The notes beneath the pieces are model-generated. The model made no database searches. It was not told the DNA's origin and was given only the letters and a program-made list of their open reading frames with translations. Below, piece after piece: positions 3,873-37,803 of a stretch of 51,831 nucleotides of DNA (positions are counted from its first letter, which is position 1; every line of letters begins with the position of its first letter). A program made the translations under genes and the position numbers. This stretch comes from Planctomycetaceae bacterium (GTDB lineage: Bacteria; Planctomycetota; Planctomycetia; Planctomycetales; Planctomycetaceae), in NCBI GenBank assembly GCA_040877445.1, contig JBBDNT010000301.1:4622-56452 (forward strand), written 5' to 3'.

Positions 3873-3955
3873 GTCCCGTCGTTCCAAGTTTCTCGATTCG
3901 AAGGTCTTGACGCAGCCAGCGAAATTGGAACGACTGATGTCCGATTTTCTCACTC

Positions 3956-25457: not shown

Positions 25458-28400
25458 TCATGTGCCGGGGGCCGTCTCCGGCTGGGAGCCGCGCGGTCGG
25501 CGACGGATCGCGAGCCAGAGCGAAGACAAGAGAATCACGACCCCCACGATCGCCGGACCGAGCCACCACCACCAGATGAAGCCGACCAGCGCCCACGCCG
25601 CCGCGGGATGAGCCGCGAGCCAGTTCGCCATGGCGGGGGCGGGACGCCAGGCCAGCACGACGACGAGCAAGAACAGGGCGGCCGCGGCGATCGCGTCGGC
25701 GGCGGTCGCCCGGATCGCCCAGAACGAAGCCGGCGCCGCTTGGGCGCGTGATTTCTCCGCGATTCGCCCCTCCACCGCCGGCTCGCCGATCATGGGGAAC
25801 GATGCCGATCGCGGCTCCGGCCGCAGCGCCTCCGGAACGGTGGCGAACGTCGGCGGCGGGACTTGTTCGGTGACGAGTCCCGTCCGGAGCCGGGGCATCA
25901 GGTGGATGTCGCGGTCCGGAACGATCGACAGGTAGACGTTCTCGACGGCCGCCTCGCGCGGCAGAGGATACGCGTCGGAGACGCGCCGCATCACGGCGGG
26001 AGCCGCCGCCGCGGACCGCGTCCAGAACAGCGCCACCGTGCGCGTGCCGACCGCCACCGGCAGCACGAGTTCGTTCCCGCCGGGAGGATCGAAAGCGACC
26101 CCTTCGCCGTCGATGAAGGCGGCCGACGGCACGCAATCGGCGGGCCATCTCCATCGCAGGCGGCCTTGCTGGCGGGGCGGGAGTTCGGCGATCGTCGTGC
26201 CGTGTTCGCGCTCCGCTCCGCGCTGCCAGACCCGCGTCCACACCGCCGAGACCTGAAGCGGTCCGGCTTCCGCCGCCGTCGGCCGACGTTCCAGGTTCCA
26301 CGAAGGCGTCGGCCCGCGGAACAGCAGCGATTCGCTGGAAAGCCCCGCGTCGTCGCGCGCGATCACCCAGTCCGGCGCCTCGTCGTGGGCCGACGCCGAT
26401 CCGTCCGCGGGCAACCACTCCATCGCCGGCGGAAGCAACAGGAAATGTTCGCCGGGCGCGGCATCGAGCACTTCGGCGCGGGGCAGCAGCCAGGTCTCGG
26501 CGGCGGTCGTGGCGATCGCGCCGCTCACCTCGACGCTCGTTTCGCCGGCGGATCCGGGTTGCGACTGGATCGATCTTTCGATGGCTCCGTCCGGCCGCTC
26601 GACCGGCGGCCCGATGAGGCAATTCACCGCCGTGATGCGATGATCGGCCGCGAGCGACGGCGGAACGTGGAGGCGATAGGGGGCGGTCCCCGCGGCCGGT
26701 GCGGGAAACCTCGACACGATGGAATATTCGAGCGCGCCGGGCGCTGATTTGGTTGGATCGCCGAGCATCGTCAGCGTATCGACGCGCGGACGTTCGTTGA
26801 CGAGGGCGCGAAGTCGAACGGGCGGCGCCGCCTCGGTCCGGGAGAACTTGCCGATCGCCACGTCGTCCGGGCGGGCCATTTCGGGAAAGGTCGCGGCGGC
26901 GGCGACGCCCTCGGTCGTCGCGCCGGCGAGCAAATCGACCGTGACCTCCGGATCGCGGACCAATTCCAGTCGCGACTCGACGATCTCGGCACCCTCGAAA
27001 TGCAAGTCGGGGAGAGTCGTCTCGGCGCTGAAATCGAGCGGCAGGTCGGCCGACAGGGCCACCCGCTGCGTGGCCGTCGTCCCGCGGTCGAGGAACAGGT
27101 GCAGGCGATCTCCCTCGCGACTCCAATGGACGAGCCGCTCGACGTCCGCCTCTTCCACCGAGATCGAGCGAATCCGCAGTCGCGGATCGGCGACGAGCGT
27201 GTGGCGATAGGCGGGAGCGCCGGCCACCTCGACTTCGGCGAGCAACTTCCACGCGAGTTGCTCGCGGCCCACGCGGCCCGCCTGGAACTGCCGCACGCGC
27301 CGAACCGCGACGAGCGGCTCGAGCGCGAACCGCACGACCGCCGGACCGCGCAGGTCGAACGCGAACTGCGGCCGCCTCGAACCACCGCCCGGTGTCGTCT
27401 CGACCGGAAACGACTCGGCGGCGATCGGGGTCGCCGCGGGACCGCGCTCTCCGGCGGTCAACCTGAACTCGGGCGCGGTGCGGACGCCGACGCGATACGG
27501 AATGAGCGGTTTCCCCGCCCGATCCGTCGCCGCGGACAGCAGTTGGCCGAGCGGGACGGCGATCGTGTCGGCCCGCTCGACGACCGCGGCAAAAAAGGTC
27601 GCCTCGACGACGAACTCCCCGGCGCGCGGCGCCGGAAGCGTCAGCAACACTTCGGCCCGGTCCTCGTCGCGGGGGGATTGTTCGGCGGCGGCGGGCACGC
27701 CGTCGATCGTCGCGCCGCGGAAGAGCATCGACCTGGGGACGTTCCAGGCGAGGTAATCGATCGGATCGTCGGGGGCGCGGTACGCGATGCGGTAGCGGTA
27801 TTCGATCCAGGCGGGGCGAACGTCCACGTCGCAGAGCACGCTCGTTTCGACGACCGCGGGGGCGGAACTGGCCTCGCGCCCCGCGAACCACGTGGCCCGC
27901 AAACGCCCCGCGCCGCCCAGATCGGCCGTCACCGTTCGCGATTCGTCATCGATCGACACGCGGCCCCGCGCGGGAGGGACCGACACCGCGGGAGGCGGCA
28001 CGCTGAAGCTCAACACGGCACGGCTCGCGGCGACCGGCGGGATCTCGATGTCGAAGCCCGGCACCGCCGTCGGCGGCGGATGCAGCGCGAACGCGATTTC
28101 CACCCGCCACGGCGCCGCGAGGTCGTCGAGATCGGGGCGCGCGATCGCGACCGTGAACGCCTTGCCCCCCGCCAGCGGTACGACCGGCACCGGCTCGCCG
28201 GCGACAAGACACGCATCCGGACCGCCGGGATTGGCCGCCGCCAACGGGAACTCGACCTCCGCGGTTCGCACGCCCGGCAACACGATCACGTCGTATCGGG
28301 CGTCCAGCGTCACCGCGTCGCGGTCCTCGATGCGGGCGAGATAGTCGGCCCGCGCGATGAGATACCGCGGCGACTCCGACGCGAGACCGGGCGCCCGCGC

Positions 28401-31400
28401 CAGACGGTCGCGGAGCGCGTCGTTCACGTACACCACCGACAGGTCCGCCGGAGCGCCCTCGGGATCGACCGGCACGAGGACCGCCTGGTCCTCGAATGCC
28501 GGTCGCGGGTCGGCGATCGCCGGAGAAGGCGCGGCTTCCTGCGCGACGGTCGAAGAGACGACGCACGCCAGCCCGAACCCTCCGGCGACGATCGCCAGCG
28601 TCATCGCCGAGGCATGTTGGAACGTCGCGGTGCTGCCGGTCATGCCCTGTTCGACCGGGCGAGGCCGGCCGATGCGGCGGAACAAGCCGATCGGCGTCAG
28701 CGCCGACAACACGCACCCCGCGAAGATCCCGCCGGCGAACGAAGTCCAGGCCGGCGGAGCGGCGATCGCGGCGGCGAGGGCGGTCGCGATCGCGACCACC
28801 GCCAGCGACGACCGCCGCGGAAGCCGCGCCAGCCGGATCGCGATCCCCATCAGGCAGGTTCCCAGAAACAACGTCCAGGCCACGAACGCGACGCGGCCTT
28901 CCTGCTGCGTGCGCAGGACGAGCCGCTCCGGCAGATATGGCGCCCAGGCCTCGATGACGCGCCAACCGGCCGGGGCGAACGCGATATCCGCCGAACGATC
29001 TTCGTCCGAGGCGCGGGGCGTGCCGAGCGGGGCCGGTCCGTCGGAACGCGTGCCGGCATCGCCGAACAGTCCGCTCCACGACGACGGCAGAAAGGGATTG
29101 AAGAACGACTGGTGCGCGGGGCGCCCCAGCGGTCCGAACAGGCGCACGGTCCAGGCCTGTCGCGGGAAGCGCGCATCGAGGGCGACGAACTTCGGTTCCT
29201 CGGCGCAGCGGATGCCCGGTGGGAGGGCGATCGTCCAGTCGAAGGCGAGCACCGCCAGCGAAGTTCGCGGCGTGGGAATGTCGTGCGTCCGCGCCGTCCA
29301 GCCATCGCTGGAACGAGTGCGATAGTCGAGCGTCACCACGTTCGGCCGCCCCGGTTCGAGGGGCGCTTCGCCACTCGACGAGTGCTTCGTCCCGTTGACG
29401 TCCAGGCCCGTCAGTTCGGCGCCTTCGGGAAGCCGGAACACGAACGTCGTCTCGGTCGAGTCGGGAGGAATGCGGAACACGGCGCGGTGATCGTCGAACT
29501 CGAACGAGTCGGCGGCGAGTCGCGAAGCAAGCGACAGGCCGGCCCAACCGGCGGCATGCCGAGCGGACGACGGGGCCGCGCTCGGAGTTCGCTCCTCGTT
29601 CGCGACATCCACGGGGATCGCGGCGCCCGGGACTGGTTCGCCTCCGGAGACTCCAACGACGTTCCGCGCGCCCGCGACGGGAAACATGAGCGTGCCGTCC
29701 GGCGTTCCGACGGCGCGAAGCCACAGGGTCGCGTCGTCGCGGTCGACGACATCGCGCCAGAACGACGCGTCCCGAACCGGTTCGGGCAATGCCTGAAAGC
29801 GGATCGATTCGGAGCGCCGCGCGTCGCGGAGTCGCAACTCCCCGGAATGCGAAAGGCCCGCGATCGATTCGGTCACTTCGCAATCGAGCGGACGGAGGCC
29901 CGGCACGGGGAACGGCTCGCCCGCGGCGACCGGCAAGCGTTGCGCGACCACGACGATCGCCTTGCCCGGCTCGTCCGCTCGGCCGGCGGGAACGAGCGCG
30001 TCGCGAAACTCGATTCGCAATTCCGCAGAACCGTCCTCTTCCGGGACGACATCCCAGCCCGCCACGGCCGATTGCCGCGCGCTCTCCGCCGGACGGACTT
30101 CGGCGATCTGCCAGCCGGGAGGAATGCCGCAGCGGGCGGCGAACGTCGAGCCGGACGAAGCGCGCCATTCGATCCGCGTTCGGGCGGTCCAATTCTCGGC
30201 GTCGAACAGCACGGCGGTGAGCGTGCGGGCCGAGAGGACCGGCTCGGGATGGTCGGCGTCGACGATCAACCCCCCGGGACCATCTTCCCGGGGGTCGTTC
30301 GTGCGGAACCGCTGAAACGTGAAACTGCGCCCGTCCGACTCGGTCCCGATCTGCCGCGCGCCCGGCGAAGAAAGGCCGCGGACTTCGAGCGGCTTCTCGA
30401 CTTCCAGCGTCGAACGCCCTTCGAGAAACAGCAGGTCGTAGTTTTCCGCGGCGACCAACCGCGGCCGGGGGAGCATCCACTTGCGTCCCAGCCGGGGGGG
30501 CGCGAACCCGCGGATGCGAACGGGCCGCGGCATCGGCCCCAGCACCGCATCGGGAAGGGCCACATCGATCAGCCGCATGCCGTCCCGGACCGACGCGGTC
30601 CAGGCCAGCGCGTCTTCCACCGCCAGTCCTCCGCCGATGCGGCGACGGGACGAACGGTATTCGATGGACAGGACTTCGGCGGCGGCGGGGAGCGCGAAAC
30701 GCAACTGGCCGACTGCACCGCCGGCCACATCCAGGTTGAAGTCGCATTGAAATTCCAATCCGTCGGATCGCAGCACGTACGACGTGTCGACCCGCGCCAG
30801 CACCACGGGATGCATGCGGGCGGACCGGGCTTCACGGACGACGGAAAGATGAAAGTCGGTCCGGCTGCCGGCATCCACGCGCCACGCGCTCCACCCCGGT
30901 CGGGATCCGCGATGCGGACCGCTCACCACGACTTCCGCGCTCGAGGTGCGCAGCGCGTGCGAATCGGGAATGGCGAGTTCGAACCGCGAGACGGTGGCGC
31001 GGGGGATATGAATTTCGAACTCGACGCTGCCGGGCAATTTGCGGCCGTTGAGACTCCACGCGCCCGCCAGCCGCTCCCCCGCGCGATCGATGAGCACCGC
31101 CGTTCGCCCCTCGCGGTCGGCCCCCCAGATCGCCGAATGATCGCTCCACGACAGGGCGGACAGGGCGAGATTGGACGAGTCCAGCCACATCAATTGCGGC
31201 GTCTCGGACGATGCCGTGACTGCCGACGACAACTCCGCCAGGAGCGTCCCGGCGGCGAACGCGTCGCCGATGAATTCCGCCTGATACACGGCGGAGGCGA
31301 AGCGGGGCGCCTCGCCTGCGGGGGGCGAACGATCGGCCGCGGAGAGCCGCTTGCGGAACTCGTCGGCGTCCATCACGTGCCAGCGGTCGGGAGACTGCTC

Positions 31401-31712
31401 GAGGAACTCGGACAAATGCTCGACCGGAACGAGCACTTGCCGCACCGGCGAGGCGCCGGCCGGAAGCGCGCTCTTCGCCGCCATCGCGAGGTCCGACGGC
31501 GCCGGCGATGGAGCGAGTGATGTCGATTTCGCCGGCGGTCTCGGCGGAGATGGTTCGTCCCCTTCGGAATCGACGCGGGCGACGGCCAGGCAAGCGATCG
31601 CGGCGATCGCGACGACGCTCGCTCGCAAGGCTTCGCGCCGCCCGCCGCGCTTCGCGGTGGCGATGACGCCGGGCCGAAGCGTTCGGCGCGTTCGTCGCGC
31701 AAGGTGACTCAT
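25458..31712 (-). CDS. giant hypothetical envelope protein (2084 aa) made of two tandem modules, each a large extracytoplasmic region followed by a 3-helix TM cluster
   Basis: The ORF has coding-like composition throughout, unlike the antisense Arg-rich ORFs. Hydrophobic N-terminus: SVVAIAAIACLAVA. Internal TM cluster at about aa 890-1010: FVAWTLFLGTCLMGIAI...LAVVAIATALAAAIAA...MTLAIVAGGFGLACVV. C-terminal TM cluster: AAALFLLVVVLAW...WALVGFIWWWWLGPAIVGVVILLSSLWLAIRRR. I recognised no catalytic motif. Its start overlaps the upstream gene's stop (ATGA). Confidence 0.6.
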   Translation of the reverse strand: MSHLARRTRRTLRPGVIATAKRGGRREALRASVVAIAAIACLAVARVDSEGDEPSPPRPPAKSTSLAPSPAPSDLAMAAKSALPAGASPVRQVLVPVEHLSEFLEQSPDRWHVMDADEFRKRLSAADRSPPAGEAPRFASAVYQAEFIGDAFAAGTLLAELSSAVTASSETPQLMWLDSSNLALSALSWSDHSAIWGADREGRTAVLIDRAGERLAGAWSLNGRKLPGSVEFEIHIPRATVSRFELAIPDSHALRTSSAEVVVSGPHRGSRPGWSAWRVDAGSRTDFHLSVVREARSARMHPVVLARVDTSYVLRSDGLEFQCDFNLDVAGGAVGQLRFALPAAAEVLSIEYRSSRRRIGGGLAVEDALAWTASVRDGMRLIDVALPDAVLGPMPRPVRIRGFAPPRLGRKWMLPRPRLVAAENYDLLFLEGRSTLEVEKPLEVRGLSSPGARQIGTESDGRSFTFQRFRTNDPREDGPGGLIVDADHPEPVLSARTLTAVLFDAENWTARTRIEWRASSGSTFAARCGIPPGWQIAEVRPAESARQSAVAGWDVVPEEDGSAELRIEFRDALVPAGRADEPGKAIVVVAQRLPVAAGEPFPVPGLRPLDCEVTESIAGLSHSGELRLRDARRSESIRFQALPEPVRDASFWRDVVDRDDATLWLRAVGTPDGTLMFPVAGARNVVGVSGGEPVPGAAIPVDVANEERTPSAAPSSARHAAGWAGLSLASRLAADSFEFDDHRAVFRIPPDSTETTFVFRLPEGAELTGLDVNGTKHSSSGEAPLEPGRPNVVTLDYRTRSSDGWTARTHDIPTPRTSLAVLAFDWTIALPPGIRCAEEPKFVALDARFPRQAWTVRLFGPLGRPAHQSFFNPFLPSSWSGLFGDAGTRSDGPAPLGTPRASDEDRSADIAFAPAGWRVIEAWAPYLPERLVLRTQQEGRVAFVAWTLFLGTCLMGIAIRLARLPRRSSLAVVAIATALAAAIAAPPAWTSFAGGIFAGCVLSALTPIGLFRRIGRPRPVEQGMTGSTATFQHASAMTLAIVAGGFGLACVVSSTVAQEAAPSPAIADPRPAFEDQAVLVPVDPEGAPADLSVVYVNDALRDRLARAPGLASESPRYLIARADYLARIEDRDAVTLDARYDVIVLPGVRTAEVEFPLAAANPGGPDACLVAGEPVPVVPLAGGKAFTVAIARPDLDDLAAPWRVEIAFALHPPPTAVPGFDIEIPPVAASRAVLSFSVPPPAVSVPPARGRVSIDDESRTVTADLGGAGRLRATWFAGREASSAPAVVETSVLCDVDVRPAWIEYRYRIAYRAPDDPIDYLAWNVPRSMLFRGATIDGVPAAAEQSPRDEDRAEVLLTLPAPRAGEFVVEATFFAAVVERADTIAVPLGQLLSAATDRAGKPLIPYRVGVRTAPEFRLTAGERGPAATPIAAESFPVETTPGGGSRRPQFAFDLRGPAVVRFALEPLVAVRRVRQFQAGRVGREQLAWKLLAEVEVAGAPAYRHTLVADPRLRIRSISVEEADVERLVHWSREGDRLHLFLDRGTTATQRVALSADLPLDFSAETTLPDLHFEGAEIVESRLELVRDPEVTVDLLAGATTEGVAAAATFPEMARPDDVAIGKFSRTEAAPPVRLRALVNERPRVDTLTMLGDPTKSAPGALEYSIVSRFPAPAAGTAPYRLHVPPSLAADHRITAVNCLIGPPVERPDGAIERSIQSQPGSAGETSVEVSGAIATTAAETWLLPRAEVLDAAPGEHFLLLPPAMEWLPADGSASAHDEAPDWVIARDDAGLSSESLLFRGPTPSWNLERRPTAAEAGPLQVSAVWTRVWQRGAEREHGTTIAELPPRQQGRLRWRWPADCVPSAAFIDGEGVAFDPPGGNELVLPVAVGTRTVALFWTRSAAAAPAVMRRVSDAYPLPREAAVENVYLSIVPDRDIHLMPRLRTGLVTEQVPPPTFATVPEALRPEPRSASFPMIGEPAVEGRIAEKSRAQAAPASFWAIRATAADAIAAAALFLLVVVLAWRPAPAMANWLAAHPAAAWALVGFIWWWWLGPAIVGVVILLSSLWLAIRRRPRGSQPETAPGT

Positions 31713-34700
31713 CGCTCCCGTCCCGCGGTGGTGGTGGAGACGGGTTCGAACGGACTAGGCGCCGGCCGGACGGCGGTCGGATCGTCGGCGCCGGCCGGGA
31801 GCGCGCGATGATTGCCGGACCCGCCCGCGGAGGGGGCGTAGAAATCGCTGGCCGCCGACAGCGTGATGATCGACGGGGCCCGCCGACGTTGAATCGTGTG
31901 CTCGATCGCCGCCGCCGCCACCGCCAGCAGCAGTCCCAGCAATGCCGGTTGCAACAGCACGCGCACCGGTTCGGCGTGCCACAGTCCCACGAGGGCGCCG
32001 GCGAAGGCGATCACCAGCAGCGTCAGCGCGTCGCGCGTGGCGGGAATCTTCAGCAGCACGAAGCCGGCCGCGAGCGCCAGTCCCGCGCCGAGCAGCACGA
32101 TCAGCGATTGGCTCATCGCTCGGAACTCGAGTGCGTCCACCGGTCCGAACCTGGCGAAGAGATACGAGTTGCCGGCCTCGAACATCGGTTCCGGCGCGGG
32201 GCCGTCGCCGGCGCCGATCCAGGCGTCGAGGTCCGCGTAGCCCGGCCGGACGTTTCGGGTCCAGAAGGCCGTGCCCCGCCGCCACTCATACATGGGCGTT
32301 AGCCCGCGCGGCGTGACGAACAAGTGCAGGTCGACCGGAAGGACGATTTCGGTCAACGACTGATCGACGCGAACGTTCGCCGGAAACCGGGCGACCGCCA
32401 ACCGCGACGCGTCCGCCCAGGTGAAGCCCCGCGGCGCGCTCTCCCGGAAGTCGATCGTCAAGAGGTGCTCGCCGGACACCGCTCCCGAAGTCCCATCGGC
32501 GATTTCCAACCGGTGCAAGCCGCCGTCGTCGTCGACCGGAACGAGGCGCTCCGGCGCGATCGTCTCGTGGTTCCACCACAGCGCCTGGACGGTTTGCTCT
32601 TCGGGAACGTGCAGCAGCAGCCTGGTGAAATCGCCCCGCAGGCGAAACTGCGCCCGGATCGACGCGTCGCCGTTGTGATCGAAAACCGTGCGGACTAGCG
32701 AGCGGCGGACGACGTAGTGCTGCGGGATGTCCGGACTGGCGCGTTCCAGTCGCACCACGATCGCGTCGCCGGGAGTCGAGGTCCGCCATTGCCGGCGATC
32801 GTCCATCGCCATCTGGCGCGTCCATCCGGATTCGGCGACGCTCACTTCAACCGTTTCGGTCGGTGGGGCCGACAAGACCAGCGCGCCGAACGGGGCCTCC
32901 GTCGGCAGCACGAGGGGCAACTTCGAATCGACCGGCTCGACCGGAGGGAGCGCCGTCCCGGGGTCGACGAAGTATTCCGCCACGATTTCGAACCAGCCGA
33001 TCCGCGGTTCCGAAAAGCGGATCGTCGCCTGCCGGTGGTCCGCATCGCCGCGGTCGGTCCAACTCGGCGTGAGGACCGCGCCATCGGCCGCCAGGAAGCG
33101 GACTTGTTCCCCCACGCCGCGGGGGACGAGTAGTCGCGCCTGCGGCAGCCGTTCATAGCGCACGTCGTAGGCGATCCGCTGGCGCACGAGCAGCCGGCCA
33201 TCAACCAGTTCGACCGCGGCGTCGGCCGAAGTCCGCACGATCCGCTCGTGCAGCGACAGCCGCACCGCGAGCAGCGCCGACGGCGACGGAACGCGATAGT
33301 GGGCGACTTCGTTCCGCGACGCGGGGGGGGACGCGCCGGCCATCGACCCTTCGCCGAACAACGGAAACGCATCGGCCAACTGGATGCGTTCGAGCGCGGT
33401 CTCGGCCGTCGGTTCGAGCTGCGCTTCGACCGCGTCGGCGGTGGTCACGAACAGGTCGGCCGGGGAGAGACTGGTGGTGTCGATTCCCGGCAGCGAAAGC
33501 ACCGTCGCTTCCGGCTCGGGAAGCATCTTCCGCCCGGCACGGACCCGGACCGTGAACTCGCCCGCTTGACGATCGCGCAACTGGATGCGGACGACATCGC
33601 TGGTCTCGTCCGTGTCGAAGTCGAACCGCTCGATGGCGGCCCCGTCCGCGGCGGGGGCGAACATGTCCGGCGGCTCGATCGTCCAGCCTTCGGCCCGCCG
33701 ATTCGGCCACGCCAGGTCCAGCGACTCGACGACGCCCCGATAGACGCGCACCTTGAACTCCGCGGTCAACTCCGCCCGCTGGCCCGAAAAGTGCAGCTTG
33801 TGCTCCGGTTGCACCGTGAACCCCGGAGGATTCCGCGTGACCGCCAGGCCCAGGCGGAACGGCTGCCGCAAGAAGCGATAAGCGCTTGCCAATGAAGGCT
33901 GCCCGATCACATCGCCGGCGTTGATGCGGTGCACGTTCGCCGCTTCGTAGCGGGCGATCCGCAATCCCTCCACGTGGGAGACGGCGATGTCGCCCGTTTG
34001 CCGCCGCGCGTGTTCGACTTCGAAACCCTCGAGCAACACCCGGCCCGATTCGGGCAACGGCGCCTGCAGCGTCCACCGCAGTTCGATCGGCCCCGTGCCC
34101 GGCTCGGTGAGTTTCACCGCCACGCGCTCGTCCGGAAGCGTCTCGTGCGAGGCGTAGCGCCGGCCTTCGACCGCGATCAGTTCGAATCCCGACGGAAGCC
34201 GGACCGTCAACGAGTCGAAGCTGCCCTGCCGCGCCTGCACGGACTGCACGACTTCCAGCAGCACGGAGTCGATCGTCGGCTTGACGGCGATCGACGCGAG
34301 CGACTCCAGCACCATTTCGACCTGCGCCGGATCGGGAAGCGGCTGCCAGGTCAGATCGAGCCGTTGCTCCAGTCCGAAGATTTCGATTTCGGTCGCGTCG
34401 TCCGACACGGCCCGAGTGCGAATCGTCGAGCGCGGGTCGCGTTCGGCGAGCGGATCGCCCGTTTTCACCGACACCCGCCGCATCGGGACCGCGATCCGCG
34501 CCTGACTCACCGCGGTCGCCGGCAGCGCGAGTTGAACCCGGCGCGTGGGAGACTGCTTGCGGACCGGCACGAACACCGACAGCGTGAGCGTGTGCAGCCC
34601 CTGTCCCTTGAGCGACCAGCGATAACCAGCGTCGCGGTCGAATTCGTCGAAGGCGGCGGTCCCCGGCCCGTCGTACGACGTGTCCCGCAGCACCGCTTCG

Positions 34701-35347
34701 TTCAACCGCAGGGGAACCCGCACCCATCCATCCGCGCGGTCGACCTGCACGCGGATCGTGGCGGTCAATTCCGCCCGCTCGTCTCCCGCCGTTCCCGCGA
34801 GCGCCACCGACGTGATGGCGTAATCCGGCCGAGCCGCCCGAGGAGGCGCGTTCTTCGCCGCGCGCCATTCGAGAAACGCCTTCAAATCCCCGTCGAGCGG
34901 GACCGGAACCAACTGGCCGCGTTCGTTTCTCAGGTAGATCGCGTCCCACTTCACCCCCCCTTCGGCGGGACGCGACACGGATGCGCCGCCGCCGTTCGAG
35001 GGAGTGAACATCGGCGCGACCGGCGACGCTCCCGTCGCGCGGGGCGTCGCTTCGGTCGGCGTTCCGTTCGCCTCTCGCGATCCGCCGCTCGTCCCGGATC
35101 GCGCTTCCGCGGGCGAACCGTTCGTCGAGTTCGAAGGCGACGAAGCATCGGCGGGCGCGGCGACGACGGAACGTGCCGGTGCCGCGGGCTGCTCCGATTG
35201 CGCGATTTGCTCCTGTCCCACGGCGGCGGTCGAGACCATCCACAGCGCCGCGAGCAGGCAAGCCGTGTAACCCAAACGGCGCACGTGGAAGCCCGATCGG
35301 TTCGACGGAGACATGTGCAGAGTGCGGACCATTCCCCCGGCCCGCAT
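31709..35347 (-). CDS. giant hypothetical envelope protein (1212 aa), a paralogous module of the downstream 2084-aa protein
   Basis: The signal peptide is GYTACLLAALWMVSTAAVGQ, followed by a Ser/Thr/Gly-rich linker, a large soluble region and the C-terminal TM cluster LIVLLGAGLALAAGFVLL...LLVIAFAGALVGLW...ALLGLLLAVAAAAIEHTIQRRR. This is the same TM1-loop-TM2-TM3-RRR layout as both modules of the neighbouring gene. The exact start is uncertain, with several in-frame ATGs at 35347-35314. Confidence 0.6.
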   Translation of the reverse strand: MRAGGMVRTLHMSPSNRSGFHVRRLGYTACLLAALWMVSTAAVGQEQIAQSEQPAAPARSVVAAPADASSPSNSTNGSPAEARSGTSGGSREANGTPTEATPRATGASPVAPMFTPSNGGGASVSRPAEGGVKWDAIYLRNERGQLVPVPLDGDLKAFLEWRAAKNAPPRAARPDYAITSVALAGTAGDERAELTATIRVQVDRADGWVRVPLRLNEAVLRDTSYDGPGTAAFDEFDRDAGYRWSLKGQGLHTLTLSVFVPVRKQSPTRRVQLALPATAVSQARIAVPMRRVSVKTGDPLAERDPRSTIRTRAVSDDATEIEIFGLEQRLDLTWQPLPDPAQVEMVLESLASIAVKPTIDSVLLEVVQSVQARQGSFDSLTVRLPSGFELIAVEGRRYASHETLPDERVAVKLTEPGTGPIELRWTLQAPLPESGRVLLEGFEVEHARRQTGDIAVSHVEGLRIARYEAANVHRINAGDVIGQPSLASAYRFLRQPFRLGLAVTRNPPGFTVQPEHKLHFSGQRAELTAEFKVRVYRGVVESLDLAWPNRRAEGWTIEPPDMFAPAADGAAIERFDFDTDETSDVVRIQLRDRQAGEFTVRVRAGRKMLPEPEATVLSLPGIDTTSLSPADLFVTTADAVEAQLEPTAETALERIQLADAFPLFGEGSMAGASPPASRNEVAHYRVPSPSALLAVRLSLHERIVRTSADAAVELVDGRLLVRQRIAYDVRYERLPQARLLVPRGVGEQVRFLAADGAVLTPSWTDRGDADHRQATIRFSEPRIGWFEIVAEYFVDPGTALPPVEPVDSKLPLVLPTEAPFGALVLSAPPTETVEVSVAESGWTRQMAMDDRRQWRTSTPGDAIVVRLERASPDIPQHYVVRRSLVRTVFDHNGDASIRAQFRLRGDFTRLLLHVPEEQTVQALWWNHETIAPERLVPVDDDGGLHRLEIADGTSGAVSGEHLLTIDFRESAPRGFTWADASRLAVARFPANVRVDQSLTEIVLPVDLHLFVTPRGLTPMYEWRRGTAFWTRNVRPGYADLDAWIGAGDGPAPEPMFEAGNSYLFARFGPVDALEFRAMSQSLIVLLGAGLALAAGFVLLKIPATRDALTLLVIAFAGALVGLWHAEPVRVLLQPALLGLLLAVAAAAIEHTIQRRRAPSIITLSAASDFYAPSAGGSGNHRALPAGADDPTAVRPAPSPFEPVSTTTAGRER

Positions 35348-35411
35348 CCACCTTCATCATAACCTCCGGAAATTCCCCGTAGAAGGAGGAATCGGCGGCG
35401 AGCGGCAAAAT

Positions 35412-35717
35412 TCATGCGATCGTCCAAGGGACCGTGCGTGTCCAAGGAACCATGCGAGTCGTACCGCCCCCGGGCGGAACGGAAACGACTCGATCTCCAA
35501 CCCGGTCTCGAGCAAAAGAACCGAGGACCGGCAGGCCGGGGGCCGTGATGTCGTAGCACATGAGCGTGTCCTGCTCGCGAAGATAGAGTTTTCCGCCGCA
35601 GACGACCGGGTGCGCCCAACTGGGGGATTCAACGACCTCGGGACGTAGCGTTCCCTTCAACTGGTAGCGTTCGGGCGTCGCCGCGATCAACGCCACTTCG
35701 ACTGACTCCTCGGACAC
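35412..35717 (-). pseudogene. possible remnant of a PQQ beta-propeller gene (terminal blade only)
   Basis: The short ORF carries WAHPVVCGGKLYLREQDTLMCYDI, which resembles the last blade of a PQQ/BamB propeller. Compare GKLYVSMIDGRLTCLAG at the end of the 873..3872 gene. The remainder is low-complexity. Confidence 0.3.
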
Positions 35718-35893
35718 GAGGCGGCTACCGGCGCATCACCGGCGCCAAGCCGACGGTGACGGCATTCCACGACGATTACCTGTCGCGAGCGAGCGCGTGT
35801 GACCGCCTCCCCAAGCCGGAAAGCACCGGGCGCCACGGGGTTTCGGGTCTCAGAGATTGTGAAACTTTCTTTCCGCTGAGTGAGCTTCGGAAT

Positions 35894-35994
35894 CGTCATT
35901 CCCGCGCAGGCGGGAATCCAGTAATCGCCAAGGCGGTTACCAATGGGATTACTGTCCGTGCATCGACTGGGTTCCCGCCTTCGCGGGAATGACG
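35894..35994. repeat. nested multi-hairpin element (three stem-loops enclosed by a 13-bp outer inverted repeat)
   Basis: Outer inverted repeat: cgtcattcccgcg at 35894-35906 pairs with cgcgggaatgacg at 35982-35994. Inner hairpin A at 35898-35917 is attcccgc-gcag-gcgggaat. Inner hairpin B at 35919-35954 pairs cagtaatc with gattactg. Inner hairpin C at 35972-35989 is ttcccgc-cttc-gcgggaa. The element lies between the ECF sigma gene stop (36035) and the PQQ remnant and giant-gene operon. Confidence 0.5.
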
Positions 35995-36034
35995 CGCTGC
36001 GGACACGGTCGAATGGCGAAAGATTCACAACCTC

Positions 36035-36613
36035 TCAGGACTGGACCTTGCGTTCGGCCAGTTTGCGGCGCGCCCGCGTGAGCACGGGGCCGATCGTGTT
36101 TTCCGGAATTCCCAATCCGGAACTGATCTCGCCGTACGACCGTCCTTCCAGATGAAACAGGCGGACGATCTCGGCGTCGGCGGCGGGAAGGACCTTCAAC
36201 AGTTGGTGAACTTCGTCGCGGTCTTCGATGCGCTTGAAATCGGACGGTTGCGTGCGGACCTTCTCGAGCGACGTCCGGTTCACCTGCACGTGCCCCAGCG
36301 CCTCGGCCATCTTGCGGCGCGACATCTCGCGCACTACGATCCGCCGGGCGACCACGGTCAGATACGTGGCCAGCGAACTGTTTCCGCGAAAGTTCCGCAG
36401 CACGGCGAAGTCGCGGGATACCAGCGTCGTGAAAATCTCCGCGCAGATATCATCCACGTCTTCGGGACGCACCCCCACGCTGCGCGCCTGGGCGGTGTGG
36501 TGGATCACATGCACGAACAACCCGATGAACCGATCGACGAGATCCTTCCAAGCGCCCGGTTCCTGGGCGAGACACCGCCGCAGCAGGTTGCGATCGATTT
36601 CGGTCAAGGCCAC
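36035..36613 (-). CDS. RNA polymerase sigma-70 factor, ECF subfamily
   Basis: The sigma-2 region is LVDRFIGLFVHVIHH...DVDDICAEIFTTL. The sigma-4 HTH is RLFHLEGRSYGEISSGLGIPENTIGPVLTRARRKL. I chose the GTG at 36613; the ORF extends to 36709. Confidence 0.7.
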   Translation of the reverse strand: MALTEIDRNLLRRCLAQEPGAWKDLVDRFIGLFVHVIHHTAQARSVGVRPEDVDDICAEIFTTLVSRDFAVLRNFRGNSSLATYLTVVARRIVVREMSRRKMAEALGHVQVNRTSLEKVRTQPSDFKRIEDRDEVHQLLKVLPAADAEIVRLFHLEGRSYGEISSGLGIPENTIGPVLTRARRKLAERKVQS

Positions 36614-36775
36614 TGGTATTCCGACTCCCTCTGCGGCGCCGCGGCCGCGGCTGCCGAAACGAGTGAACGGGATACCGTCAAATGTACGTTCCCGGCGCCA
36701 TTCCGGCAAGATGAACCCGCCCGTTTCGCCCCGCGGCGGTGGCCGCCCGACCGAAAAGCCGTGCCGAAGTCCGGC

Positions 36776-37369
36776 TCAATCGCAGTCGCGGCACACCGTC
36801 CGGTCGGGCCGGGGTTCGTAGTCCGTCAGGTTTCCGCGGCGGTCGAACTCGAACGTGCAACAGCGATCGAGAGCTTCCTTGAGCAGCCTCCGGCCGCGTT
36901 GGATGCGGGATTTGGCTCCGGACAGCGAGAGTCCCAGCCTGTCCGCGACTTCCCGCCCCGGCACTCCCTCGATCTCCGCCAACCGGACCGCCTCGCGGTA
37001 CTTTTCGGGCAACTCGCGGATCAATCCCTCGAGCCACGATCCCGCCTCGTTCCGCAGATGTCCCACGCGATCCATCTCGGCGGCGGCCGGTTCCGTATCG
37101 GACAGTTCGACGGCGGATTCCGAGGTCTTGCGGTAGTGATCGACGATGACGTTGCGGGCGATGCGATGGACCCACGCCGCCAGGCGATCCGCATCGGCGA
37201 GCGCGTCGATCCCGCGGTGAATCCGCAGAAACGTCTCCTGCAGCAGATCCTCGGCGGCGTGGTCGTCGGCGACGCGGCGGCGGATGAACCGCCGCAGGTC
37301 GCCGCTCAATCGCAGCCACGCCGCATCAGTGGCCGGTCGTGCCGTCATGCGACGGCCTCCCGGCAGCAC
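36776..37369 (-). CDS. ECF sigma factor with C-terminal cysteine-rich extension (CorE-like candidate metal-sensing sigma)
   Basis: Sigma-2: EDLLQETFLRIHRGI...AWVHRIARNVIVDHYR. Sigma-4: LPEKYREAVRLAEIEGVPGREVADRLGLSLSGAKSRIQRGRRLL. An extra 28-aa tail, CCTFEFDRRGNLTDYEPRPDRTVCRDCD, carries a CC pair and a CxxC. Confidence 0.7.
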   Translation of the reverse strand: MLPGGRRMTARPATDAAWLRLSGDLRRFIRRRVADDHAAEDLLQETFLRIHRGIDALADADRLAAWVHRIARNVIVDHYRKTSESAVELSDTEPAAAEMDRVGHLRNEAGSWLEGLIRELPEKYREAVRLAEIEGVPGREVADRLGLSLSGAKSRIQRGRRLLKEALDRCCTFEFDRRGNLTDYEPRPDRTVCRDCD

Positions 37370-37803
37370 TCGCTCTGCGACGAACGATGATTCACCCCGT
37401 CGTCGTCGAGGACGACGTACGTCTCCCAGCGGTTTCCGTCCGGATCGGCCGCCCAGACCTTGTTCTGCACGGCATAGCAGCAGGCGACCCGCTCCTCGGT
37501 CCGGGTGGCGTATCCGGCGGCGGCGAGTCGGTCGGCGACCGTCCGAACCGCGTCGCTCGACTTGACCTGAATCCCGAAGTGAGCGATCGGGTCGGACGGA
37601 CCCGTTGCTCCGCCGGCCTCGTTCAGCGACAGGTTCACCGGCGGCTCGGCGACCTCGAACTTCGCGTAACCCGGACGGGTTTTCGACGGCCCCTGCCCGA
37701 ACAGCATCCGATAGAAGGCGACCGAGCGCTCCAAGTCGTTCACGGCCAGCCCCATGTGAATGCGGCTGTTCGTCTCGAATCGCACCGCGGATTCATGGCT
37801 CAT
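37345..37803 (-). CDS. VOC (glyoxalase/bleomycin-resistance/dioxygenase) family protein, ArsI/CadI-like with vicinal cysteines
   Basis: The N-terminal half has a glyoxalase-fold beta-alpha-beta pattern (HMGLAVNDLERSVAFYRMLFG ... HFGIQV). Vicinal Cys pairs VACCYAV and SECC lie near the C-terminus, as in ArsI/CadI-type metalloenzymes. Its stop overlaps the CorE-like sigma start by 25 nt. Confidence 0.6.
   Translation of the reverse strand: MSHESAVRFETNSRIHMGLAVNDLERSVAFYRMLFGQGPSKTRPGYAKFEVAEPPVNLSLNEAGGATGPSDPIAHFGIQVKSSDAVRTVADRLAAAGYATRTEERVACCYAVQNKVWAADPDGNRWETYVVLDDDGVNHRSSQSECCREAVA

What the first reader, a model, noticed from the sequence alone, without database searches (positions are those of the whole stretch)
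35894..35994. 101-bp nested hairpin element (three stem-loops inside a 13-bp outer inverted repeat) at the head of the giant-protein operon, next to a PQQ-blade gene remnant
The outer pair cgtcattcccgcg/cgcgggaatgacg encloses the hairpins ATTCCCGC-gcag-GCGGGAAT, cagtaatc...gattactg and TTCCCGC-cttc-GCGGGAA. Two of the hairpins share the ATTCCC-N8-GGGAAT format. Its position is downstream of an ECF sigma gene and upstream of the 31709-35347 and 25458-31712 genes. It could be a structured leader, an attenuator or a small RNA. It could also be a REP-like insertion that disrupted a former PQQ-propeller gene; the 35412-35717 ORF retains only a terminal blade.
Basis: seen in the sequence. Interest (0 to 1): 0.5.

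Follow-up and report, generated by a model that had tools for sequence, protein, structure and literature searches.

The report
Known hairpin repeat inside a MITE
The 101-bp nested hairpin is an inverted pair of the widespread NTS/dRS3 (CGTC-type REP) palindromic repeat, carried inside a 182-bp miniature transposon that landed on the stop codon of a sigma-factor gene; it is selfish repeat DNA of a known kind, not a dedicated regulator of the giant genes.

Summary
Window 35894-35994 is a 29-nt inverted repeat (27/29 complementary), and each arm is itself an 8-bp/4-nt-loop hairpin.

Both arms match the published 28-nt Neisseria Transformation Sequence (NTS), also known as the Ssn-related motif, CGTC-1 REP or dRS3: CGTCATTCCCGCGMAVGCGGGAATCYRG. 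The left arm has 0 mismatches and the right arm 1. Near-identical dimers with unrelated spacers occur in more than 10 phyla.

Window 35853-36034 (182 bp) is a MITE. Its terminal inverted repeats (GAGGTTGTGAATCTTTC) are those of roughly 1.6-kb IS1182-family insertion sequences found in metagenomes. It is flanked by the family's typical 3-bp duplication, TCA. The right-hand TCA is the TGA stop codon of the ECF sigma gene.

Close relatives keep the giant-gene pair and the sigma gene but lack the element. It has no Rfam match and no terminator tail. A conserved leader, attenuator or sRNA is therefore not supported.

The PQQ-propeller remnant is real (35541-35819). A 182-bp insertion cannot account for its truncation.

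No Ssn, RAYT or IS1182 transposase is encoded in the window.

Verdict: a new member of known kinds. A side lead of wider interest is that NTS dimers recur as cores of unrelated MITEs.

The parts
35850..35852 (.). Left copy of the 3-bp target-site duplication (TCA)
   Evidence: Read directly. It is identical to 36035-36037. The same TIR family shows matched TCA/TCA, TGA/TGA, GCA/GCA and GGA/GGA flanks in 16 short elements and 5 full-length IS copies.
35853..35869 (+). Left terminal inverted repeat of the MITE (GAGATTGTGAAACTTTC)
   Evidence: 15/17 match to the IS1182-type TIR GAGGTTGTGAATCTTTC. Only two such sites occur in the window, against 0.03 expected.
35870..35893 (.). Left linker (24 nt) between the TIR and the NTS; not complementary to the right linker
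   Evidence: No similarity to other fetched MITEs beyond the TIR.
35894..35921 (+). Left NTS / CGTC-1 REP unit (CGTCATTCCCGCGCAGGCGGGAATCCAG), containing a perfect dRS3 at 35898-35917
   Evidence: 0 mismatches to the published NTS consensus (consensus from PMC11893778). On its own it folds as an 8-bp stem with a 4-nt loop, -13.7 kcal/mol.
35922..35966 (.). Variable spacer of the dimer. With the last bases of the left NTS it forms the third stem, 35919-35926 / 35947-35954.
   Evidence: Spacers of 5 aligned dimers and of about 160 fetched dimers are unrelated to each other.
35967..35994 (-). Right NTS / CGTC-1 REP unit (reverse complement CGTCATTCCCGCGAAGGCGGGAACCCAG)
   Evidence: 1 mismatch to the NTS consensus. 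The CGTC tags face outward, which makes this an 'HH' dimer by the Di Nocera definition.
35995..36017 (.). Right linker (23 nt)
36018..36034 (-). Right terminal inverted repeat of the MITE (reverse complement GAGGTTGTGAATCTTTC)
   Evidence: 17/17 identical to the left end of IS1182-family elements from metagenomes.
36035..36037 (.). Right copy of the target-site duplication (TCA). It is the TGA stop codon of the sigma gene on the - strand.
   Evidence: Orthologues stop at the same position with TGA.
36035..36613 (-). ECF-type sigma-70 family gene, 192 aa as annotated in the source MAG. The longest ORF runs to 36709.
   Evidence: Pfam Sigma70_r4_2 and Sigma70_ECF. P0194 is 99% identical and named a sigma-70 family RNA polymerase sigma factor.
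35541..35819 (-). 3' fragment of a PQQ_2 / BamB-like beta-propeller pseudogene. It covers the last 55-90 residues, has two in-frame stops, and lacks about 350 N-terminal residues.
   Evidence: 826 library hits. The matches fall at the extreme C-terminus of proteins of about 420-440 aa, and these carry PF13360 PQQ_2. tblastn extends the homology to 35819.
35348..35400 (-). Conserved leader block immediately upstream of the 1212-aa gene. This is the only part of the intergenic region shared with relatives.
   Evidence: Compare with L005 and L006.
25458..35347 (-). Giant-gene pair (1212 aa and 2084 aa, 4-nt overlap). It is downstream context, not part of the element.
   Evidence: The pair and the convergent BacA gene are conserved in L005 and L006.

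Best explanation
The 101-bp element is a head-outward (HH) inverted dimer of the pan-bacterial CGTC-1 REP. That repeat is also called the Neisseria Transformation Sequence / Ssn-related motif, and it contains dRS3.

The dimer forms the core of a 182-bp non-autonomous transposon (MITE, 35853-36034) whose ends are those of IS1182-family insertion sequences. An IS1182-type DDE transposase supplied in trans inserted this MITE at a TCA target, which is the TGA stop codon of the ECF sigma gene on the other strand. The 3-bp duplication regenerated the stop codon, so the sigma protein is unchanged.

**Shown here**
- The identity of the arms.
- The identity of the terminal repeats with those of transposase-bearing elements.
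- The flanking duplication.
- The absence of the element from orthologous loci.
- The lack of any partner enzyme gene in the window.

**Inferred**
- The unit is primarily selfish DNA.
- Its effects on the host are by-products.
  - On the - strand it is transcribed as the 3' end of the sigma mRNA. There it would fold into a very stable hairpin that can block 3' exonucleases or impede read-through, as described for REPs.
  - As single-stranded DNA, each arm is a potential binding and cleavage site for an Ssn-type GIY-YIG nuclease, if the genome encodes one.

Whether the NTS dimer travelled inside the MITE or entered it later is not resolved.
For: **Arms are NTS repeats**
- The arms have 0 and 1 mismatch to CGTCATTCCCGCGMAVGCGGGAATCYRG (consensus in PMC11893778).
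- They show the CGTC-1 features: an 8-bp stem starting AT, a 4-nt loop, a CCA tail and HH dimer organisation (PMC3733652).
- The arms are nearly invariant and the centres unrelated in Neisseria, Sphingomonas, Azospirillum and a phage record.
- The same dimer architecture occurs in 36 viral-contig stretches. These span Proteobacteria, Binatia, Chloroflexota, Gemmatimonadota, Acidobacteriota, Hydrogenedentota, Elusimicrobia, Nitrospirota, Bacteroidota and others.

**The outer repeat is a MITE end**
72 of 120 hits carry exactly GAGGTTGTGAATCTTTC, and 53 of those 72 are preceded by TCA or TGA.
- Roughly 1.6-kb copies with this left end carry a matching right end and matched TCA or TGA flanks.
- They encode 436-472-aa proteins that score 362 and 358 bits on NF033551 'IS1182 family transposase' (cut-off 270). 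These proteins have DUF772 and DDE domains.
- 16 short elements of 68-147 nt carry both ends and identical 3-bp flanks.
- The window copy has both ends and TCA/TCA flanks.
- Sigma orthologues stop with TGA at the same codon.

**Not conserved, not autonomous**
- Relatives lack the element.
- An independent Logan contig is identical to window 36008-37479. It stops exactly where its 31-mers become TSD plus MITE only, as expected at the edge of a repeat.
- No GIY-YIG, RAYT or transposase is found in the window.
Against: - Only one copy of the NTS pair and one copy of the MITE is visible in 51.8 kb. The rest of the source MAG could not be retrieved, so multi-copy status in this genome rests on an indirect k-mer argument.
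- For a TNA-type target, T and A would also match as an extension of the inverted repeat. The direct-repeat evidence in this single copy therefore rests on the middle base alone. It is the family-wide pattern, including GCA/GCA and GGA/GGA, that carries the argument.
- No empty-site allele was found.
- No second copy of this exact MITE-plus-NTS composite was found.
- No expression data exist, so a host-level role cannot be excluded.
Confidence: 0.85

Rival explanations
1. It is a structured RNA leader, attenuator or small RNA that controls the giant-gene operon.
For: - It is very stable as RNA on the transcribed (-) strand: -96.4 kcal/mol, z = -7.5.
- It lies between a sigma gene and the giant genes, which are on the same strand.
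Against: - It is absent from both retrievable loci that carry the orthologous giant-gene pair. Their upstream regions are 92-130 nt and share only a block of about 45 nt next to the start codon.
- No Rfam family comes near its threshold.
- No terminator-like site lies at the element.
- The same arms occur in DNA of more than 10 phyla next to unrelated genes.
- It has transposon ends and a target duplication.
Confidence: 0.04
2. It is an exapted 3'-UTR element. Whatever its origin, the palindrome now acts at the RNA level as a stabiliser of the sigma mRNA or as a partial barrier that insulates the sigma gene from downstream transcription, as proposed for REPs. This does not exclude the best explanation.
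For: - The unit starts at the stop codon of the sigma gene on the transcribed strand.
- It forms a strong hairpin.
- CGTC-1 REPs between same-direction genes typically sit close to the 3' end of the upstream ORF and are thought to act as RNA (PMC3733652).
Against: - There is no U-tract after the stem.
- It is not conserved in orthologues, so it is not needed for sigma function.
- No expression data are available.
Confidence: 0.25
3. The NTS dimer is an independently mobile REPIN-like element. It would be mobilised by a RAYT tyrosine transposase, as argued for Neisseria, or propagated with an Ssn GIY-YIG nuclease gene. On this view it inserted into the centre of a pre-existing 81-bp MITE, rather than being cargo that moved with the MITE.
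For: - Removing the dimer leaves a 41 + 40 nt unit, which is within the size range of bare MITEs of this TIR family (68-147 nt).
- About 80% of NTS dimers elsewhere have no flanking inverted repeat, so they can spread without a MITE.
- Neisseria REPINs with this sequence track a Group 2 RAYT (bioRxiv 10.1101/2021.07.10.451892).
- Single-domain GIY-YIG genes lie within 8 kb of 3 of 119 dimers, one of them about 65 nt away. This agrees with PMC11893778.
Against: - No RAYT or GIY-YIG gene is in the window.
- No bare version of this MITE subfamily was found.
- In Binatia the whole TIR-linker-dimer composite is multi-copy, with conserved linkers at different loci. This favours movement as a unit there.
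- Mobility of NTS has never been demonstrated (PMC3733652 conclusions; PMC11893778 discussion).
Confidence: 0.35
4. It is a functional Ssn target that restricts or shapes recombination of incoming single-stranded DNA around this locus, as NTS does for transformation in Neisseria meningitidis.
For: - The left arm is an exact NTS and the right arm has 1 mismatch. Both carry the oriented CGTC head needed for SsnA binding.
- The locus is a junction of rearranged synteny blocks.
Against: - There is a single pair in 51.8 kb, whereas functional arrays in Neisseria are dense clusters (PMC11893778).
- No Ssn homologue is in the window: the best tblastn E-value is 2.1, using three validated GIY-YIG queries.
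- Natural transformation in this lineage is not documented in anything I could test.
Confidence: 0.1

Closest known systems
Neisseria Transformation Sequence (NTS) / Ssn-related motif (SRM), the target of SsnA GIY-YIG single-strand DNA nucleases (Nat Commun 2025, PMC11893778)
   Same: - It has the 28-nt sequence: 0 and 1 mismatch to the consensus.
- It has the hairpin core with an oriented CGTC head.
- It is intergenic.
- It occurs far outside Neisseria.
   Different: - Here there is a single inverted pair, not a cluster.
- No ssn gene lies beside it.
- It sits inside a DDE-type MITE.
- The host is a Planctomycetaceae MAG.
- Cleavage and any role in transformation are untested.
dRS3 repeat and Neisseria intergenic mosaic elements (ATTCCC-N8-GGGAAT)
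   Same: The left arm contains a perfect dRS3 and the right arm has one mismatch.
   Different: There is no mosaic array of RS units. Neisseria carries hundreds of copies per genome.
CGTC-1 family of tagged REPs, HH dimers (Di Nocera et al. 2013, PMC3733652)
   Same: - It has the CGTC tag, an 8-bp stem beginning AT, a 4-nt loop and a CCA tail.
- It is a head-outward dimer with a spacer of 20-100 bp that carries a small stem-loop at one end.
- It lies just after the 3' end of the upstream ORF, between same-direction genes.
   Different: That paper found no transposase linked to CGTC repeats. It reported palindromic 'target' flanks only for some species, such as H. neapolitanus. Here the flanks are identifiable as IS1182-type ends with a target duplication.
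REPIN / RAYT systems (Bertels and Rainey)
   Same: There are two inverted REPs less than 130 bp apart that fold into one long hairpin. The Neisseria REPIN master sequence, ATTCCCGCGCAGGCGGGAATC, is present verbatim at 35898-35918.
   Different: No RAYT is in the window. Multi-copy population structure in this genome could not be examined.
MITEs derived from IS1182-family insertion sequences
   Same: - It has 17-nt terminal inverted repeats identical or near-identical to those of transposase-bearing elements.
- It has a 3-bp TNA-type duplication.
- It is 182 bp long with no coding capacity.
   Different: The core is an NTS dimer. Other members fetched here carry GTAG-type REP-like hairpins, GC-rich palindromes or other CGTC-type pairs. 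The autonomous partner was not seen in this genome.

Membership tests
NTS / Ssn-related motif | Match to CGTCATTCCCGCGMAVGCGGGAATCYRG (the authors allowed at most 1 mismatch) | tested here: met
   35894-35921 (+) has 0 mismatches and 35967-35994 (-) has 1. Both also match the degenerate SRM expression.
NTS / Ssn-related motif | Semi-palindromic hairpin with a non-palindromic 5' CGTC head that gives orientation | tested here: met
   8-bp and 7-bp stems with 4-nt loops, -13.7 and -12.6 kcal/mol, and an unpaired CGTC head.
NTS / Ssn-related motif | Repeated many times in the genome | not testable with these tools
   Only this pair occurs in 51.8 kb. The rest of the MAG could not be fetched.
NTS / Ssn-related motif | The genome encodes a single-domain GIY-YIG (cd10448) Ssn, often flanked by the motif | tested here: inconclusive
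   None in the window: tblastn with three Pfam-validated GIY-YIG proteins gives a best E-value of 2.1. The whole genome was not available. In other genomes, 3 of 119 dimer loci carry such a gene.
NTS / Ssn-related motif | Single-strand-specific cleavage upstream of the motif by the cognate Ssn | not testable with these tools
   This is a biochemical assay.
dRS3 | ATTCCC-N8-GGGAAT | tested here: met
   35898-35917 is exact and 35971-35990 has 1 mismatch, against 0.09 expected.
CGTC-1 REP (HH dimer) | CGTC tag, 8-bp stem starting AT, 4-nt loop, CCA-type tail, tags outward in dimers, spacer 20-100 bp | tested here: met
   Read from the sequence against the definitions. The spacer between the 28-nt units is 45 nt.
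REPIN | Two inverted REPs within 130 bp that form one hairpin | tested here: met
REPIN | A cognate RAYT (IS200/IS605-like Y1 transposase) in the genome | tested here: inconclusive
   No Y1_Tnp domain was found among the window's plausible genes. The genome was not available.
IS1182-family MITE | Terminal inverted repeats matching those of autonomous family members | tested here: met
   17/17 and 15/17 matches to GAGGTTGTGAATCTTTC. The autonomous elements carry NF033551 transposases scoring 362 and 358 bits, with a cut-off of 270.
IS1182-family MITE | Target-site duplication of the size and type made by the family | tested here: met
   TCA at 35850-35852 and at 36035-36037. The family shows TCA, TGA, GCA and GGA direct duplications. 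Caveat: in this single copy only the middle base distinguishes a duplication from an extension of the inverted repeat.
IS1182-family MITE | Small and non-coding, with no transposase | tested here: met
   182 bp. ORFs across it have no family match. There is no transposase homology in the window.
IS1182-family MITE | Several copies, plus an autonomous partner, in the same genome | not testable with these tools
   There is only indirect support. Logan contig L043 ends exactly at the k-mer boundary of TSD plus MITE.
Intrinsic terminator | GC-rich hairpin followed by a U-tract | tested here: not met
   No terminator-like site lies at the element; the two found nearby are at shuffle level. No T-run follows the stem on the - strand.
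Any Rfam RNA family | Score at or above the family's gathering threshold | tested here: not met
   The best hit scores 31.2 bits against a threshold of 90. It is a plant miRNA hairpin model, in other words a generic hairpin.

The most novel reading that the evidence does not exclude
NTS/CGTC-1 REP dimers have no demonstrated transposase of their own. They may spread by riding as the central cargo of MITEs that are mobilised in trans by ordinary DDE transposases.

**Cases seen here**
- In this window the vehicle is an IS1182-type MITE with a 3-bp duplication.
- Among 121 dimers from other genomes, 24 (20%) have flanking inverted repeats, against 2.2% in a mismatched-flank control.
- Several of those are clean MITEs with unrelated ends and duplications:
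  - a Dehalococcoidia unit with a 10-bp duplication;
  - a Dehalococcoidia unit with an 8-bp duplication;
  - a Dysgonomonadaceae unit with an 8-bp duplication;
  - a multi-copy Binatia family.
- In these units the dimer is usually near-central, with 20-34-nt linkers on both sides.

If this is a real vehicle-and-passenger relationship, rather than REPs landing in MITE loops, it would help explain how a 28-nt hairpin stays almost identical across more than 10 phyla.
Probability: 0.3. Interest if true: 0.6.

Novelty: new member of a known kind. Interest (0 to 1): 0.3.

Why it matters
**For this window.** The result removes a tempting but wrong annotation. The hairpin is not a riboswitch-like leader of the giant genes. 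It is a nested pair of known selfish elements at a junction of rearranged gene blocks. Gene callers should not call the ORFs that cross it.

**More widely**, it adds three things:
- a Planctomycetaceae example of the NTS/SRM repeat that was recently tied to Ssn single-strand DNA nucleases;
- a tidy case of a MITE using a stop codon as its TNA target and regenerating it;
- a testable lead on how CGTC-type REPs move, namely as passengers in MITEs of several unrelated transposase families.

If the source genome also encodes an Ssn, the pair would be a ready-made substrate and enzyme combination from a new phylum for the single-strand DNA tool applications proposed for that family.

Tried and rejected
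- **Rfam.** A permissive scan of 35000-37000 gave only sub-threshold generic hairpin hits.
- **Promoters and terminators.** The scan found nothing at the element.
- **Orthologous loci in species-representative genomes.** The 1212-aa protein found no relative.
- **Source contig.** Exact look-ups of the 1212-aa ORF, of P0001 and of the PQQ-remnant ORF were not on record.
- **Other copies of the 182-bp composite.** A protein-level search with the spurious ORF across it found no candidate. A short-word BLAST of the linkers and spacer against all 290 fetched loci found nothing beyond the TIRs and the identical Logan contig.
- **Universal motif upstream of the CGTC head.** Across 244 flanks there is only a pyrimidine at -1 and mild C-richness at -5 to -10, so the outer repeat is not part of the NTS itself.
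- **Third stem as a general feature of such spacers.** This was rejected after trimming the tails.
- **Pfam on the PQQ-remnant ORF.** It gave nothing even at E = 10. The remnant was identified only through full-length homologues.
- **Supplementary tables of the Ssn paper.** They are not held, so the paper's own list of phyla could not be checked for Planctomycetota.
- **Outer-arm metagenome hits as chance.** Chance was rejected because one of the four pattern variants dominates (72 of 120), 74% of those follow TCA or TGA, and many lead into the same transposase gene.
Full report
**1. The observation**

The sequence at 35894-35994 is as described, and more regular than described.

- The outer inverted repeat has 29-nt arms, 35894-35922 and 35966-35994, which are 93% complementary.
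- Each arm is itself a small hairpin: ATTCCCGC-GCAG-GCGGGAAT at 35898-35917 and TTCCCGC-CTTC-GCGGGAA at 35972-35990.
- A third 8-bp stem, CAGTAATC/GATTACTG, lies in between.
- The ATTCCC-N8-GGGAAT format occurs twice in the window (at most 1 mismatch), against 0.09 expected.
- The region folds at z = -7.5 and z = -6.9 relative to shuffles on the two strands.
- In the optimal fold the arms pair with each other as one long hairpin.
- A second, outer inverted repeat at 35849-35869 and 36018-36038 (21 nt, 86%) was not in the finding.

**2. What the arms are**

A distant-similarity search of plasmid and phage records found the same arms in several unrelated hosts. These were Neisseria gonorrhoeae, Sphingomonas, Azospirillum, Cupriavidus, Novosphingobium, Photobacterium, Aeromonas and a large phage record. 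In an alignment of five such elements the arms are almost invariant and the centres are unrelated.

The literature names the sequence.

- ATTCCC-N8-GGGAAT is the dRS3 repeat of Neisseria.
- The longer oriented form, CGTCATTCCCGCGMAVGCGGGAATCYRG, is the Neisseria Transformation Sequence. It generalises to the 'Ssn-related motif' and is bound and cut as single-stranded DNA by the small GIY-YIG nuclease SsnA (PMC11893778).
- The same unit is the CGTC-1 family of tagged REPs: an 8-bp stem starting AT, a 4-nt loop, a CCA tail, mostly as 'HH' dimers with the CGTC tags outward (PMC3733652).
- Its dimers are the Neisseria REPINs of Bertels and Rainey.

The left arm matches the NTS consensus with 0 mismatches and the right arm with 1. 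Nothing else in the window matches within 3 mismatches.

A pattern requiring both complete ends found the following:

- 36 stretches in viral contigs;
These come from Alpha-, Beta- and Gammaproteobacteria, Binatia, Dehalococcoidia, Thermoflexales, Gemmatimonadota, Acidobacteriota, Hydrogenedentota, Elusimicrobia, Syntrophobacterales, Nitrospiraceae, Bacteroidota and one Arthrobacter record.

These dimers are 76-106 bp long, with a median of 93. The window's 101 bp is typical.

**3. The outer repeat is a pair of transposon ends**

Chance alone could give a number of that order, but the hits are not random.

- 72 of 120 carry exactly GAGGTTGTGAATCTTTC. This is the window's right arm read inward.
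- 53 of those 72 are preceded by TCA or TGA.
- Many lead, after 65-104 nt, into an ORF of 436-472 aa.
- Two such proteins score 362 and 358 bits on NCBIfam NF033551, 'IS1182 family transposase' (cut-off 270). One has Pfam DUF772 and DDE_Tnp_1_6.
- About 1.6 kb downstream these elements end in ...GATTCACAGCCTC.
- Five of them show the same trinucleotide, TCA or TGA, on both sides.

The same ends also bracket many short non-coding elements of 68-147 nt. Sixteen of these have identical 3-bp flanks: TCA nine times, TGA five times, GCA once and GGA once. This is therefore a family of IS1182-type insertion sequences and their MITEs, with a 3-bp, mostly TSA, target duplication.

The window unit fits this family.

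- The left end, GAGATTGTGAAACTTTC, lies at 35853-35869.
- The right end, GAAAGATTCACAACCTC, lies at 36018-36034.
- TCA lies at 35850-35852 and again at 36035-36037.

One caveat applies. In a TNA target the outer two bases would also match as an extension of the inverted repeat. In this one copy only the middle base distinguishes a duplication from that.

**4. Where it landed**

36035-36037 is the TGA stop codon of the ECF-type sigma gene on the - strand. Orthologues at 88% and 81% identity end ...LAERKV-x-x-TGA at the same codon. The MITE therefore used the stop codon as its target, the duplication restored it, and the protein is unchanged.

A Logan contig from run SRR27977662 is 100% identical to window 36008-37479 and ends at 36008. 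Its last 31-mer is one unique base, plus TCA, plus 27 nt of the MITE end. The unitig thus stops exactly where k-mers cease to contain unique flank. That is what a repeat boundary produces, and it suggests more copies of this MITE end in that sample. This is an inference only.

**5. It is not a conserved regulator**

The source is an NCBI MAG labelled Planctomycetaceae bacterium. Two relatives keep the pair of giant genes followed by a convergent BacA gene.

- Upstream of the first giant gene they have an inositol-phosphatase gene or an FxsA gene at 130 or 92 nt.
- They share with the window only a block of about 45 nt next to the start codon (window about 35348-35400).
- They have no NTS or SRM in 12 kb.

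Sigma orthologues are followed by an HSP70-family gene after 215-241 nt of unrelated sequence.

The 635 bp between 35400 and 36034 is therefore junction DNA between two blocks that are not neighbours in relatives. It holds the pseudogene fragment and the MITE. There is no Rfam match and no terminator-like site.

**6. The PQQ remnant**

- Residues 4-59 of ORF 35412-35717 (-) match the extreme C-terminus of proteins of about 420-440 aa, with 826 hits and 20 below 1e-10.
- Those proteins carry PF13360 PQQ_2.
- tblastn carries the homology through two in-frame stops up to 35819.
- About 350 N-terminal residues are missing.
- The fragment ends about 30 nt outside the MITE, whose two ends and duplication are intact. 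A 182-bp insertion cannot remove a kilobase, so the truncation was a separate deletion or rearrangement.

**7. Partner enzymes**

Pfam annotation of the window's plausible genes shows no transposase, GIY-YIG or Y1 transposase.

tblastn gave best E-values of 2.1 and 0.61. The queries were three GIY-YIG proteins that I first validated by Pfam, and an IS1182 transposase.

In the 119 genome loci with dimers, three carry a 98-aa GIY-YIG gene within 8 kb. In Dyella mobilis the dimer lies about 65 nt upstream of it. This agrees with the published association. Whether the source genome has such a gene could not be tested.

**8. How it most likely works**

*Shown:* the unit is a non-autonomous IS1182-type MITE with an NTS dimer core, inserted at the sigma stop codon and absent from relatives.

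*Inferred:*
- It was mobilised in trans by an IS1182-family transposase.
- It persists as selfish DNA.
- As RNA it adds a very stable hairpin to the 3' end of the sigma transcript. This could protect the transcript or impede read-through, as proposed for REPs that sit just after upstream ORFs.
- As single-stranded DNA each arm is a candidate Ssn site.

*Open:* whether the dimer moved with the MITE or entered it later.

**9. A wider pattern seen in passing**

- Of 121 NTS dimers from other genomes, 24 have a flanking inverted repeat scoring at least 12. This compares with 22 of 1000 in a control that pairs left and right flanks of different dimers.
- Some of these flanks are extra NTS half-sites. 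Others are clean MITE-like units with unrelated ends and duplications:
  - L099, Dehalococcoidia, 10-bp GCTTCCGCTA;
  - L130, Dehalococcoidia, 8-bp AGCTAAGG;
  - L149, Dysgonomonadaceae, 8-bp AAACTTCC.
- A multi-copy Binatia family has conserved linkers, and the whole unit sits in the loop of a split NTS hairpin.
- Linkers between end and dimer are 20-34 nt on both sides, so the dimer is usually near-central.
- Conversely, bare MITEs of the IS1182-type family often have GTAG-type REP-like hairpins or other CGTC-type pairs as cores.
- Di Nocera et al. noted REP dimers inside palindromes in a few species without identifying them. IS5-family IS1106 is known to associate with dRS3 regions (PMC1525189).
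- Either REP dimers hitch-hike in MITEs or MITE centres are preferred landing sites. The data here do not decide between these.

**10. Verdict**

This is a real feature that is now fully explained in kind. It is a new member of known families: NTS/SRM, also known as CGTC-1 REP or dRS3, nested in an IS1182-type MITE. The host phylum is one where I found no previous example in what I could read. The finding itself is of low to moderate interest. The MITE-passenger lead is the part worth a systematic follow-up.

Noticed in passing
L099 7528-7702; L130 740-918; L149 523-671; L090 4459-4683; L106 171-392; L151 2742-2965; L156 6274-6490; L129 4060-4263: NTS dimers in other phyla sit near the centre of MITE-like units. 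These have unrelated terminal repeats and clean 8-10-bp duplications, or in Binatia and one alphaproteobacterium they lie inside the loop of a split NTS hairpin. 24 of 121 dimers have flank inverted repeats, against 2.2% in a control.
   Followed up: partly
L252, L250, L176, L179, L271, L197, L205, L257, L217, L235, L171, L198 (metagenome loci, coordinates): Short MITEs with the IS1182-type ends GAGGTTGTGAATCTTTC...ATTCACAACCTC and matched TCA or TGA flanks usually have REP-like cores. These are GTAG-tagged hairpins, CGTAGCGGCGGCG palindromes, or GTCTCGAAGGRTGG-type CGTC pairs.
   Followed up: partly
L043 (Logan SRR27977662), equal to window 36008-37479: An independent assembly is 100% identical to the window. 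Its contig ends exactly where 31-mers contain only TSD plus MITE sequence, as expected if this MITE end is repeated in that sample.
   Followed up: partly
window 35348-35400; L005 about 1455-1500; L006 about 1130-1175: A conserved block of about 45 nt (GATTCsTCCTTCTACsGGG..TTTCCGGrGGTTATGAT) lies directly upstream of the first giant gene in three genomes. It is the only conserved part of that intergenic region and is a better candidate for a leader or ribosome-binding structure than the hairpin.
   Followed up: no
window 35400-36034 versus L005, L006, L044, L049: Both flanks of the junction have different neighbours in relatives. Inositol phosphatase or FxsA lies upstream of the giant genes, and HSP70 lies downstream of the sigma gene. 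The window's gene order is therefore a lineage-specific rearrangement.
   Followed up: partly
L167 3248-3698 (Dyella mobilis); also L166, L066: A 98-aa single-domain GIY-YIG gene (PF01541) lies about 65 nt from an NTS dimer, and another REP-like hairpin follows its 3' end. Three of 119 dimer loci have such a gene within 8 kb.
   Followed up: yes
MW495066.1 (record named Microcystis phage MaAM05), L004 1500-1604: This 274-kb phage record from hospital wastewater holds 9 places similar to the element, with TGTC-headed NTS dimers. That is unusual for a phage genome.
   Followed up: no
window 43809-43836 (-): There is one further match to the very degenerate SRM expression, inside the HlyD-family gene. 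It has no similarity to the NTS proper, and the Markov-shuffle mean is 0.65 hits, so it is probably chance.
   Followed up: yes
window 36035-37369: Two sigma-70/ECF-type genes lie in tandem on the - strand (36035-36613 and 36776-37369). The same tandem is present in L043.
   Followed up: no
window 873-3953 (-): A full-length 1026-aa protein with PQQ_2 propeller repeats is encoded elsewhere in the window. The propeller family of the pseudogene fragment therefore has intact paralogues nearby.
   Followed up: no
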